Source: Escherichia coli
Lineage (GTDB): Bacteria > Pseudomonadota > Gammaproteobacteria > Enterobacterales > Enterobacteriaceae
NCBI RefSeq assembly: GCF_036507355.1
Contig: NZ_AP027877.1
Direction: 5' to 3' (one strand)
DNA: 64,000 nt
A program made the position numbers. The first letter of the stretch is position 1; each line of letters begins with the position of its first letter. Shown piece by piece: positions 24,001 through 27,000 of this stretch.

Positions 24001-27000
24001 CGATGAGATTTTCCCAAGCTTTTCAGTCAGCACCTGAATTTGTCTTGTGATTTTGGCTATTTCTGATGTTCCTTCCGGGGCGGAGTTGTTTGAAATAACG
24101 GTTGAGGTATTTCCCTGAATTGTGACAGACATAGATTTCTCCTTTTAAAAAAGCACTATCGGCATGCACAAAAAAATCTTTAATCGTATTTCTTGTGTCA
24201 TTAATTGTTTGATGTTCAGATTGTTTTCCTCGCGGGCTGGCGCGCCTCAGAAAGTAAAGCTTGTTGACAGGGGTAAACGTTCGGCAATAATTTTCTGCCG
24301 CATGCGGGTGTTGCATAAAACGTGTTACGTTCCTTTATCGACAGGTCAGGTCACCGCTCACCCGCCGACGAGAAAGCAACACTGACATGCTAAAGCAAAA
24401 AATAGATGAATAAGTTGAGTTGTGCATATGTAGCCTGACCGTCACAAAGTATATGGTGTCTGTACCAGTAAGATGATGGCCGGACTCTTTAAAAACGAGC
24501 TGACCTGCACAATACAGGATGGACTTAGCAATGGCTGCTCCTGGCACAAAGCGGACAGTGATCACCGTTCTTACGACTACTTTCTGACTTCCTTCGTGAC
24601 TTGCCCTAAGCATGTTGTAGTGCGATACTTGTAATGACATTTGTAATTACAAGAGGTGTAAGACATGGGTAGCATTAACCTGCGTATTGACGATGAACTT
24701 AAAGCGCGTTCTTACGCCGCGCTTGAAAAAATGGGTGTAACTCCTTCTGAAGCGCTTCGTCTCATGCTCGAGTATATCGCTGACAATGAACGCTTGCCGT
24801 TCAAACAGACACTCCTGAGTGATGAAGATGCTGAACTTGTGGAGATAGTGAAAGAACGGCTTCGTAATCCTAAGCCAGTACGTGTGACGCTGGATGAACT
24901 CTGATGGCGTATTTTCTGGATTTTGACGAGCGGGCACTAAAGGAATGGCGAAAGCTGGGCTCGACGGTACGTGAACAGTTGAAAAAGAAGCTGGTTGAAG
25001 TACTTGAGTCACCCCGGATTGAAGCAAACAAGCTCCGTGGTATGCCTGATTGTTACAAGATTAAGCTCCGGTCTTCAGGCTATCGCCTTGTATACCAGGT
25101 TATAGACGAGAAAGTTGTCGTTTTCGTGATTTCTGTTGGGAAAAGAGAACGCTCGGAAGTATATAGCGAGGCGGTCAAACGCATTCTCTGAACCAAAGCT
25201 TCGCACCGAAGGTGACACTTCTGCTTTGCGTTGACAGGAGAAGCAGGCTATGAAGCAGCAAAAGGCGATGTTAATCGCCCTGATCGTCATCTGTTTAACC
25301 GTCATAGTGACGGCACTGGTAACGAGGAAAGACCTCTGCGAGGTACGAATCCGAACCGGCCAGACGGAGGTCGCTGTCTTCACAGCTTACGAACCTGAGG
25401 AGTAAGAGACCCGGCGGGGGAGAAATCCCTCGCCACCTCTGATGTGGCAGGCATCCTCAACGCACCCGCACTTAACCCGCTTCGGCGGGTTTTTGTTTTT
25501 ATTTTCAACGCGTTTGAAGTTCTGGACGGTGCCGGAATAGAATCAAAAATACTTAAGTAGCGCGCAGGGATAAGAGGGATGGTCCCTTAAAGGGGAGAGC
25601 TAATTATCCGGAAGGATTCTGATGATGAACATCGAAGAACTGCGTAAAATTTTTTGTGAAGATGGCCTCTATGCTGTGTGCGTTGAAAATGGAAATCTTG
25701 TTAGTCATTACCGCATTATGTGTTTGCGAAAGAATGGGGCTGCGTTAATTAATTTTGTGGATGCTCGGGTCACGGACGGATTTATCTTGCGCGAAGGTGA
25801 GTTTGTCACTTCATTACAGGCATTGAAAGAGATCGGAATAAAAGCTGGCTTTTCTGCTTTTTCAGGAGAATAAACTCATCTACAATCTTGCGCGGGGCTG
25901 AACTCCCGCTGAGTAACACCGTGCCACCGGAGAAAACCGATGGCACGCAACGCAAAATATTACAATTCTGATAATTCGCCCGTTCTTGCCTGCACGCACG
26001 GGCGGTATTCTCACGCATTCAAGTCTGAATGGTTCCAGCACCCTCCATGCACTGCAGAACAGGCCGAATGGCTGATTCATTCTTACCGCAGGCGCGGGTT
26101 CGAGGTTAAGAAAGCTCTCAGTCTCGACTATCGGCACTGGATAATCTCTGTCAGGCTGCCTTATTCCGAACGCCCACCACGTGCGTCCCGCACTTTCCAG
26201 CAACGGATCTGGAGGTAACGTGCGGGTATTACTTAGACCTGTTCTGGTGCCTGAGCTTGGGCTGGTGGTCCTTAAGCCGGGCCGTGAATCCATACAGATA
26301 TTTCATAATCCTCGAGTGCTGGTGGAACCGGAACCAAAAAGCATGCGTAATCTGCCATCCGGAGTCGTTCCTGCCGTTCGCCAGCCGCTGGCGGAAGACA
26401 AAACATTGCTGCCGTTTTTTAGTAACGAACGGGTGATTCGTGCTGCTGGCGGCGTTGGCGCATTGTCCGACTGGCTATTACGTCATGTTACATCCTGCCA
26501 GTGGCCTAATGGCGATTACCATCACACTGAAACAGTCATTCACCGTTATGGTACCGGCGCAATGGTGTTGTGCTGGCACTGCGACAACCAACTGCGTGAC
26601 CAGACATCGGAATCACTGGAGCTGCTTGCTCAACAAAATCTGACAGCATGGGTGATTGACGTCATCCGTCACGCAATAAGCGGTACGCAGGAGCGGGAAT
26701 TATCTTTGGCTGAATTATCCTGGTGGGCGGTCTGCAATCAGGTGGTGGATGCACTACCTGAGGCTGTATCGCGTCGTTCGCTGGGATTACCAGCGGAAAA
26801 AATCTGCTCGGTGTACCGCGAAAGCGACATCGTACCGGGAGAGCAGACCGCCACCAGCATATTGAAACAACGCACAAAAAATCTTGCACCGTTGCCTTAC
26901 GCCCACCAGCAACAAAAATCACCACAGGAAAAGACGGTGGTAAGCATCACCGTTGATCCAGAGTCTCCGGAATCTTTCATGAAGCTGCCTAAACGTCGCC

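What the first reader, a model, noticed from the sequence alone, without database searches (positions are those of the whole stretch)
24156..24182. Flagellar sigma-28 promoter driving a prophage gene
TAAAGATT-N11-GCCGATAG upstream of flxA is a near-consensus FliA promoter, tying a prophage gene to the host flagellar regulon. This is a known feature of flxA and appears intact here.
Basis: partly seen in the sequence, partly recalled or inferred. Interest (0 to 1): 0.2.

Follow-up and report, generated by a model that had tools for sequence, protein, structure and literature searches.

The report
Known flagellar promoter of prophage flxA
This is the already-characterised promoter that puts the prophage gene flxA under the bacterium's flagellar sigma factor; it is base-for-base identical to the E. 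coli K-12 reference, so it is ordinary, although relatives of the gene in other bacteria all keep the same kind of promoter.

Summary
TAAAGATT-N11-GCCGATAG lies at 24156..24182 on the minus strand. Its -10 block ends 23 nt upstream of the ATG of flxA (23800..24132, minus). It matches the sigma-28 (FliA) consensus TAAAGTTT-N11-GCCGATAA at 14 of 16 positions. It is the best sigma-28 PWM hit in the window (21.8 bits; next best 13.4; 0 of 200 shuffles reach it).

The 256-bp promoter region is 100% identical to MG1655. The same 28-mer is the published FliA ChIP-seq motif for flxA, whose expression falls from 280 to 2 in a fliA deletion.

Three points were added here:
- flxA is a compact unit: promoter, about 15-nt leader with AAGGAG, 110-codon gene, hairpin terminator. 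It lies opposite to the neighbouring prophage genes.
- All 12 FlxA-family lineages examined, down to about 31% identity, have a sigma-28-type motif 22-31 nt upstream of the ATG. Several sit in a conserved non-prophage slot (lysV-[flxA-like]-yfeR). Sigma-28 control therefore looks like a family trait that the prophage probably acquired with the gene.
- This strain has an IS3-family element about 200 bp downstream of flxA, which leaves the unit intact.

Interest is low.

The parts
24175..24182 (-). sigma-28 -35 element, TAAAGATT (7 of 8 matches to TAAAGTTT)
   Evidence: The A at position 6 is as frequent as T among the 51 other FliA-bound sites (22 A, 23 T). The functional aer (TAAAGATA) and flgMN (TAAAGATT) promoters share it.
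24164..24174 (-). 11-nt spacer, TTTTTGTGCAT
   Evidence: The length equals the consensus spacing. The sequence is not conserved among family members, but the length is 11-12 nt in all 12.
24156..24163 (-). sigma-28 -10 element, GCCGATAG (7 of 8 matches to GCCGATAA)
   Evidence: The core CGATA is invariant in all 12 FlxA-family lineages. The final G is at the most variable position of the block (33 A, 14 T, 2 C, 2 G among 51 sites).
24133..24149 (-). Inferred short 5' leader with Shine-Dalgarno AAGGAG (24139..24144), 6 nt before the ATG
   Evidence: Read directly from the sequence. The transcription start is inferred from the usual distance downstream of a sigma-28 -10 element. It was not measured here.
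23800..24132 (-). flxA coding sequence, 110 aa
   Evidence: ORF. (Pfam PF14282, E 2.3e-14). (annotated flxA in genomes whose DNA here is 100% identical to the window). The promoter region and the first 41 nt of the CDS are identical to MG1655.
23763..23785 (-). Probable intrinsic terminator: 7-bp G+C-rich stem GUGGCCC/GGGCCAC, 5-nt loop, then UUUU
   Evidence: -18.3 kcal/mol, z = -3.3, 0 of 200 shuffles fold as well. It starts 14 nt after the stop codon. The U-run has only 4 U, so the consensus terminator scan did not call it. Identical in MG1655 and ATCC 8739.
22358..23597 (-). IS3-family insertion sequence (orfA 23256..23540, orfB 22387..23199), context only. It is downstream of flxA, in the same orientation, and beyond the hairpin.
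   Evidence: MG1655 and ATCC 8739 have ydfW at this position instead. The junction was not found in any of 5,426 complete E. coli genomes.

Best explanation
This is the class-3 (late) flagellar promoter of flxA. RNA polymerase carrying sigma-28 (FliA) recognises TAAAGATT and GCCGATAG, which are 11 nt apart. It starts transcription a few bases downstream and makes a short monocistronic mRNA: a leader of about 15 nt with AAGGAG, then the 110-codon flxA, ending at a hairpin just after the stop codon. FliA is made only when FlhDC is active, and it is released only when the anti-sigma factor FlgM is exported through the finished hook-basal body. flxA is therefore expressed together with flagellin and the chemotaxis genes.

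Shown here: the motif, its position, its identity to the reference, its statistical distinctness, and its conservation across the gene family. Taken from published work on the identical K-12 sequence: FliA binding and FliA-dependent expression. Inferred: the exact start site, terminator function, and activity in this particular strain.
For: Motif and position. PWM rank 1 in the window, 21.8 against 13.4 bits, 0 of 200 shuffles. 100% identity to MG1655 over 256 bp. Published ChIP-seq motif identical, expression 280 against 2 in the fliA deletion. -28.4-fold in the deletion and +8.2-fold on induction. Sigma-28 holoenzyme SELEX peak. Co-regulation with fliC, tar, cheW and others in independent transcriptomes. 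Phylogenetic footprint: all 12 FlxA-family genes have a sigma-28-type motif 22-31 nt before the ATG. Ten score above every one of 5,000 null windows and the other two have P of about 0.01. CGATA is invariant, and the blocks carry 1.24 and 1.61 bits per column against 0.40 and 0.52 in the flanks. Hairpin after the stop codon.
Against: No experiment exists for this strain. The window does not contain fliA, flgM or flhDC, so it cannot show that the regulon is active in the host. The hairpin has only four U residues, so termination efficiency is uncertain. Copies of the promoter in E. coli are essentially invariant (at least 99% identical in 1203 of 1205 records), so within-species data carry no independent information. 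Two of the 12 family promoters are weak matches (10.6 and 11.5 bits).
Confidence: 0.95

Rival explanations
1. The motif is a chance resemblance and flxA is transcribed from elsewhere, either from a sigma-70 promoter or by read-through from ydfV upstream on the same strand.
For: A search allowing 3 mismatches to the consensus is not significant by itself (48 of 100 shuffles give a hit). ydfV lies upstream in the same orientation.
Against: The site has only 2 mismatches and is far above the null in PWM scoring. The identical sequence is bound by FliA in vivo, and flxA drops about 140-fold without FliA. No sigma-70-like site was found on the flxA strand in the ydfV-flxA gap. The motif is kept at the same distance from the ATG in relatives whose flanks no longer align.
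Confidence: 0.02
2. The promoter is intact but idle in this host, because the strain has lost flagellar regulation. It would then be a fossil rather than a working link.
For: The prophage here is heavily decayed, with two IS3-family elements and no dicA/dicB/int region. The strain belongs to a lineage poorly represented among complete genomes (best backbone identity 99.3%). These were the reasons to suspect a Shigella-like, non-motile host.
Against: Exact-sequence look-ups of backbone proteins return only Escherichia coli labels (strain TA447 and a 4.64-Mb genome), none Shigella. The flxA unit itself carries no mutation relative to MG1655 in the regions aligned. Nothing in the window speaks to motility.
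Confidence: 0.08
3. On origin: the sigma-28 promoter arose within the prophage lineage as a phage adaptation to time flxA with host motility, rather than arriving with the gene.
For: This is the implicit reading of 'tying a prophage gene to the host regulon'. The closest relatives (60-86% identity) are all in mobile contexts: Qin-like prophages, prophage remnants next to icd, and a locus next to a TraI relaxase.
Against: The more divergent chromosomal clade is 30-38% identical to Qin FlxA and 37-58% identical within itself. It sits in the syntenic lysV-yfeR slot of Enterobacter, Pseudocitrobacter and others, and it carries the same promoter type at the same distance from the ATG. Independent invention in both clades is less parsimonious than inheritance.
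Confidence: 0.3

Closest known systems
flxA promoter of E. coli K-12 MG1655 (Qin prophage, b1566; Ide and Kutsukake 1997; Fitzgerald et al. 2014)
   Same: Identical over 256 bp, which covers both promoter blocks, the spacer, the leader, the Shine-Dalgarno sequence and the first 41 nt of the gene. Same upstream neighbours ydfV and relBE-hokD.
   Different: Only the downstream context differs. This strain has a second copy of a 25-bp segment (as in ATCC 8739) and an IS3-family element about 200 bp after the stop codon, where K-12 has ydfW-ydfX-dicC.
Canonical class-3 flagellar promoters (fliC, tar, flgMN, aer, tsr), consensus TAAAGTTT-N11-GCCGATAA
   Same: Same two octamer blocks and 11-nt spacing. 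flgMN has the identical -35 element TAAAGATT, and aer has TAAAGATA. The FliA dependence of flxA (280 to 2) is as steep as that of tar or yhjH.
   Different: The product has no known role in flagellar assembly or motility (title of Ide and Kutsukake 1997, as cited). The ChIP occupancy score is moderate: 16, against 57-110 for tar, fliC and motAB. The -10 block ends in G rather than A.
Prophage 'morons': autonomous gene cassettes with their own promoter and terminator inserted between phage genes (concept from lambdoid phage genomics; recalled from general knowledge)
   Same: A single gene with its own promoter and a hairpin after the stop codon, lying opposite to the flanking relBE-hokD-rem-ydfU-Q genes inside a lambdoid prophage. 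The same cassette is present in the deposited phage genome PhiR42_1.
   Different: Typical morons use sigma-70 promoters that are active in the lysogen. This one is wired to an alternative sigma factor, and relatives with the same wiring exist on chromosomes.

Membership tests
sigma-28 (FliA)-dependent class-3 promoter | -35 octamer resembling TAAAGTTT, with T1, A3 and G5 intact (mutating these positions abolishes aer promoter activity) | tested here: met
   TAAAGATT, 7 of 8 matches, with T1, A3 and G5 present. Mutational data in PMC2859248.
sigma-28 (FliA)-dependent class-3 promoter | -10 octamer resembling GCCGATAA | tested here: met
   GCCGATAG, 7 of 8 matches. The mismatch is at the most variable position.
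sigma-28 (FliA)-dependent class-3 promoter | 11-nt spacer between the two octamers | tested here: met
   Exactly 11 nt. Consensus spacing.
sigma-28 (FliA)-dependent class-3 promoter | Correct orientation and a short distance upstream of a gene | tested here: met
   Same strand as flxA. The -10 block ends 23 nt before the ATG, and AAGGAG lies in between.
sigma-28 (FliA)-dependent class-3 promoter | Occupied by FliA in vivo or by the holoenzyme in vitro | not testable with these tools
   Published for the identical K-12 sequence: ChIP-seq peak with this exact motif and a genomic SELEX peak. Not measured in this strain.
sigma-28 (FliA)-dependent class-3 promoter | Expression of the downstream gene depends on FliA | not testable with these tools
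   Published for K-12: 280 against 2; -28.4-fold and +8.2-fold. Not measured in this strain.
FlxA-like protein family (Pfam PF14282) | Score above the Pfam gathering threshold over most of the model | tested here: met
   53.8 bits against a cut-off of 26.3; residues 7-101 match model positions 2-96 of 101.
Prophage moron (autonomous cassette) | Located within a prophage, between phage genes, and transcribed independently of them | tested here: met
   Lies between the decayed early region and relBE-hokD-rem-ydfU-Q, on the opposite strand to the latter. Annotated as cryptic prophage Qin in MG1655. Also present in phage record PV340562.
Prophage moron (autonomous cassette) | Own promoter and own terminator | tested here: inconclusive
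   The promoter is established. The hairpin after the stop codon is significantly stable (z = -3.3) but has only 4 U residues, and the consensus terminator scan did not call it.

The most novel reading that the evidence does not exclude
Sigma-28 control is an ancestral, conserved property of the whole FlxA family, not a peculiarity of one prophage gene. A chromosomal flxA-like gene with the same promoter type occupies the slot between the valUXY-lysV tRNA cluster and yfeR in Enterobacter, Pseudocitrobacter and related Enterobacteriaceae. On this reading, lambdoid prophages and other mobile elements picked up a complete class-3 flagellar transcription unit. FlxA would then be a conserved late flagellar-regulon protein of unknown function, even though it is dispensable for motility in K-12. 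I found no paper that states this, in three full-text searches.
Probability: 0.55. Interest if true: 0.3.

Novelty: already known. Interest (0 to 1): 0.12.

Why it matters
The finding itself matters little. It re-identifies a promoter that was characterised in 1997 and has been confirmed by ChIP-seq, RNA-seq and SELEX since. Its practical value is as a positive control: a tool-free reader correctly recognised a sigma-28 promoter from sequence alone.

The comparative result adds something modest. A small coiled-coil protein of unknown function keeps a sigma-28 promoter across about 70% sequence divergence, in prophage, conjugative-element and chromosomal settings. That argues FlxA does something linked to the motile state, and that its function deserves another look, for example as a flagellar type III export substrate or a surface or behaviour modulator. 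It also gives a clean example of a mobile element carrying a host-regulon cassette as a complete unit.

Tried and rejected
1. Shigella-type, non-motile host. I suspected this from the IS load, from the absence of the flxA/IS junction in 5,426 complete E. coli genomes, and from the best backbone identity of only 99.3%, to O55:H7/O157:H7. I rejected it because exact protein look-ups return only E. coli labels.

2. Identifying the strain by scanning species-representative genomes for the 45-nt IS/flxA junction. No match.

3. Within-species comparison of the promoter. It is uninformative, because 1203 of 1205 records are at least 99% identical.

4. flxA in sequenced phages. There is only one record (PhiR42_1), identical at the protein level and in the 28-mer promoter motif, so it adds no variation.

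5. The first null distribution for the family scan could include the flxA promoters themselves. It was redone with those regions excluded.

6. Rfam scan of 23400..25800. Nothing bears on the promoter. The only hit is a weak, sub-threshold isrK-like match downstream of hokD.

7. A LysR-regulator paper that mentions FlxA. I checked it for a link to yfeR, and flxA appears there only as one of many flagellar-regulon genes that move together.

8. A remnant of a flxA-like gene in the K-12 lysV-yfeR slot. None was found; all tblastn E-values are above 0.2.

Full report
**Observation.** The sequence TAAAGATT-TTTTTGTGCAT-GCCGATAG is present once in the window, at exactly 24156..24182. On that strand it is followed by a short leader with AAGGAG (24139..24144) and the ATG at 24132 of a 110-codon ORF (23800..24132). 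That ORF matches the Pfam FlxA family at 53.8 bits against a cut-off of 26.3.

The site has 2 mismatches to the sigma-28 consensus TAAAGTTT-n11-GCCGATAA (consensus as printed in PMC2859248). It is the only site in the 64 kb within 3 mismatches. That loose search is not significant on its own, because 48 of 100 shuffles give at least one hit. I therefore built a position weight matrix from the FliA ChIP-seq motifs in Table 2 of Fitzgerald et al. 2014, leaving flxA out. With the 21 strong sites, the flxA site scores 21.8 bits, the next best site in the window scores 13.4, and none of 200 shuffled windows reaches it. With all 51 sites it scores 19.4 against 15.1, and 3 of 200 shuffles reach it.

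The two mismatches fall at tolerant positions. At -35 position 6, A is as common as T among the other bound sites (22 against 23). The last base of the -10 block is the most variable position (33 A, 14 T, 2 C, 2 G).

**Identity with the known promoter.** The window's flxA region is 100% identical to many complete E. coli genomes, including ATCC 8739. An alignment of 256 bp, from the end of ydfV into flxA, shows no difference from MG1655.

The identical 28-mer, TAAAGATTTTTTTGTGCATGCCGATAGT, is the motif listed for the flxA FliA ChIP-seq peak. Normalised expression there is 280 in motile MG1655 and 2 in the fliA deletion (PMC4183435). Zhao et al. 2007 list flxA at -28.4-fold in a fliA deletion and +8.2-fold five minutes after FliA induction (PMC1935009). 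Genomic SELEX with sigma-28 holoenzyme gives a peak between ydfV and flxA (PMC5493296). Unrelated transcriptomes show flxA moving with fliC, tar, cheW and ycgR. The original description is Ide and Kutsukake 1997, Gene 199:19, whose title states that the gene depends on FliA but is dispensable for motility (reference list).

**Anatomy and context.** Fourteen nucleotides after the flxA stop codon there is a 7-bp G+C-rich hairpin, GUGGCCC-UCAUC-GGGCCAC, followed by UUUU (23763..23785). Its energy is -18.3 kcal/mol, with z = -3.3 and no shuffle folding as well. The short U-run kept it below the consensus terminator scan, so termination is likely but not shown.

flxA and the doubtful ORF ydfV lie on the minus strand. 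relB, relE, hokD, rem, ydfU and the Q antiterminator lie on the plus strand, as in cryptic prophage Qin. flxA thus looks like a self-contained cassette, with promoter, leader, gene and hairpin, set against the direction of those neighbouring genes. The same block, with the same 28-mer, is present in the deposited genome of Escherichia phage PhiR42_1 from ECOR13.

Downstream, this strain differs from K-12. It has two copies of a 25-bp segment (as ATCC 8739 does). About 200 bp after the stop codon it has an IS3-family element (22358..23597) in the same orientation as flxA, where K-12 and ATCC 8739 have ydfW. An IS600 copy abuts rspB (19471..20627), and the dicA-dicB-int end of the prophage is missing. 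None of this touches the flxA unit.

**Related sequences.** Copies in E. coli cannot test constraint. The 161-bp promoter segment occurs in 1202 of 5426 complete genomes and is at least 99% identical in 1203 of 1205 records. I therefore collected divergent FlxA-family proteins and their DNA contexts.

Every one of the 12 lineages examined has a sigma-28-type motif 22-31 nt upstream of its ATG, down to about 31% protein identity with Qin FlxA in a family alignment. Examples:
- TAAAGATA-N11-GCCGATAG: Enterobacter sp. HG048, in a prophage remnant next to icd.
- TAAAGTCT-N11-GCCGATAC: a metagenome contig, 65% identity.
- TTAAGTTT-N12-ACCGATAT: next to a TraI relaxase.
- TAAATTTC-N11-GCCGATAT
- TAAAGATT-N11-GACGATAA
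- TCAACTTT-N11-GCCGATAA
- TCAAGTTC-N11-GCCGATAT: Pseudocitrobacter faecalis.

The null was 5,000 random 100-nt windows from 112 kb of the same loci, with the flxA upstream regions removed (99th percentile 10.8 bits, maximum 14.4). Ten of the 12 exceed every null window. The other two score 10.6 and 11.5 bits (P about 0.01).

Anchored alignments show a clear footprint. CGATA is invariant in 12 of 12. The two blocks carry 1.24 and 1.61 bits per column, against 0.40 and 0.52 in the flanks and spacer.

The proteins fall into two groups. One is a mobile-context group: this window, the icd-prophage copies, the TraI-linked copy and two others, 60-86% identical to one another. The other is a more divergent chromosomal group, 37-58% identical within itself and 30-38% identical to Qin FlxA.

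In Enterobacter roggenkampii, Pseudocitrobacter faecalis and a contig whose FlxA cluster includes Enterobacteriaceae bacterium C34A, the chromosomal gene sits in a syntenic slot: gltX, valU-valX-valY-lysV, flxA-like, then a convergent yfeR. In the first two, yfeC-yfeD lie upstream and yfeH, ypeB and ligA follow. In K-12 the same slot holds xapR-xapB-xapA-yfeN, and there is no flxA remnant there.

**Mechanism.** Sigma-28 holoenzyme binds the two octamers and transcribes a short monocistronic flxA mRNA. FliA synthesis requires FlhDC, and FliA is held by FlgM until the hook-basal body is complete (established flagellar hierarchy, summarised in PMC4183435). flxA is therefore a late, class-3-type gene.

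Binding and FliA dependence are shown in the literature for the identical sequence. The start site, terminator function and activity in this strain are inferred. I put 0.95 on this explanation.

The rival that the motif is fortuitous is excluded for practical purposes. The rival that the promoter is idle because the host is non-motile cannot be decided from the window, but the Shigella idea that prompted it failed: backbone proteins match E. coli records exactly.

On origin, inheritance of the promoter with the gene is more parsimonious than invention within the prophage. The direction of transfer is not proven.

**Comparison and novelty.** The feature is the flxA promoter of K-12, unchanged. 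It meets every sequence-level criterion of a sigma-28 class-3 promoter. The two functional criteria are met in the literature for the same sequence and cannot be tested here. Novelty is 'already known', and interest is low (0.12).

The most novel reading not excluded is that sigma-28 control is a family-wide, ancestral trait of FlxA-like genes, and that prophages captured a whole class-3 unit. I give that 0.55 and modest interest (0.3). Three full-text searches found no paper that says so.

Noticed in passing
window 24264..24291 (+): A very strong sigma-70-like site, TTGACA-16-AATAAT (11 of 12 matches). It sits in the flxA-ydfV gap, about 80 bp from the sigma-28 promoter and divergent from it. 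It would fire antisense to the doubtful ydfV ORF (24335..24640, minus) towards relB, well upstream of where I recall the relBE promoter and operator to be. It is identical in MG1655.
   Followed up: no
window 22358..23640 (-): The IS3-family element downstream of flxA begins TGAATCGCCACGGGTTTAACAGACACC. About 40 bp before it, the native sequence (also present in MG1655) reads AAATCGCCACGAGTTTAACTGACAACC, which looks like the IS end. This may be insertion next to an end-like target or a relic of an earlier copy. The transposase genes have the same orientation as flxA, so FliA-driven read-through is possible if the hairpin leaks. Strain S1-CAM-01-C has an IS3-family transposase gene starting 112 bp after flxA.
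   Followed up: partly
window ~23697..23746 (-): A 25-bp segment, ATTTCTGATAGTTAACATTACAAGA, is present as two tandem copies here and in ATCC 8739 but as one copy in MG1655.
   Followed up: no
window 19471..23600: The early end of the Qin-like prophage is gone. An IS600 copy (orfA 20325..20627, orfB 19471..20289) abuts rspB, and only fragments lie between it and the second IS; a partial match to strain S1-CAM-01-C there overlies a DUF7167 pseudogene and a SAM-dependent methyltransferase. dicA, dicB, dicF and int are absent. No complete E. coli genome in the collection reproduces this arrangement.
   Followed up: partly
window 25414..25495 (+): A weak, full-length match to the Rfam family isrK (an Hfq-binding sRNA) lies just downstream of hokD: 25.1 bits against a gathering score of 50, E = 0.0099. 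It may be a distant relative or chance.
   Followed up: no
L020 3799..4342, L021 3646..4342, L013 2114..2845: In Enterobacter roggenkampii, Pseudocitrobacter faecalis and a C34A-like contig, a single flxA-like gene with a sigma-28-type promoter fills the variable slot between lysV tRNA and yfeR. E. coli K-12 has the xanthosine genes xapR-xapBA and yfeN in that slot.
   Followed up: yes
12 FlxA-family upstream regions (window 24164 and the loci): The base immediately 5' of the -10 octamer is T in 11 of 12 lineages (TGCCGATA), as in many K-12 FliA sites. All family proteins end in the motif ID(I/V/L)(Y/H/F)(V/I), apart from one LNVYI variant, after a glutamine-rich coiled-coil-like core.
   Followed up: no
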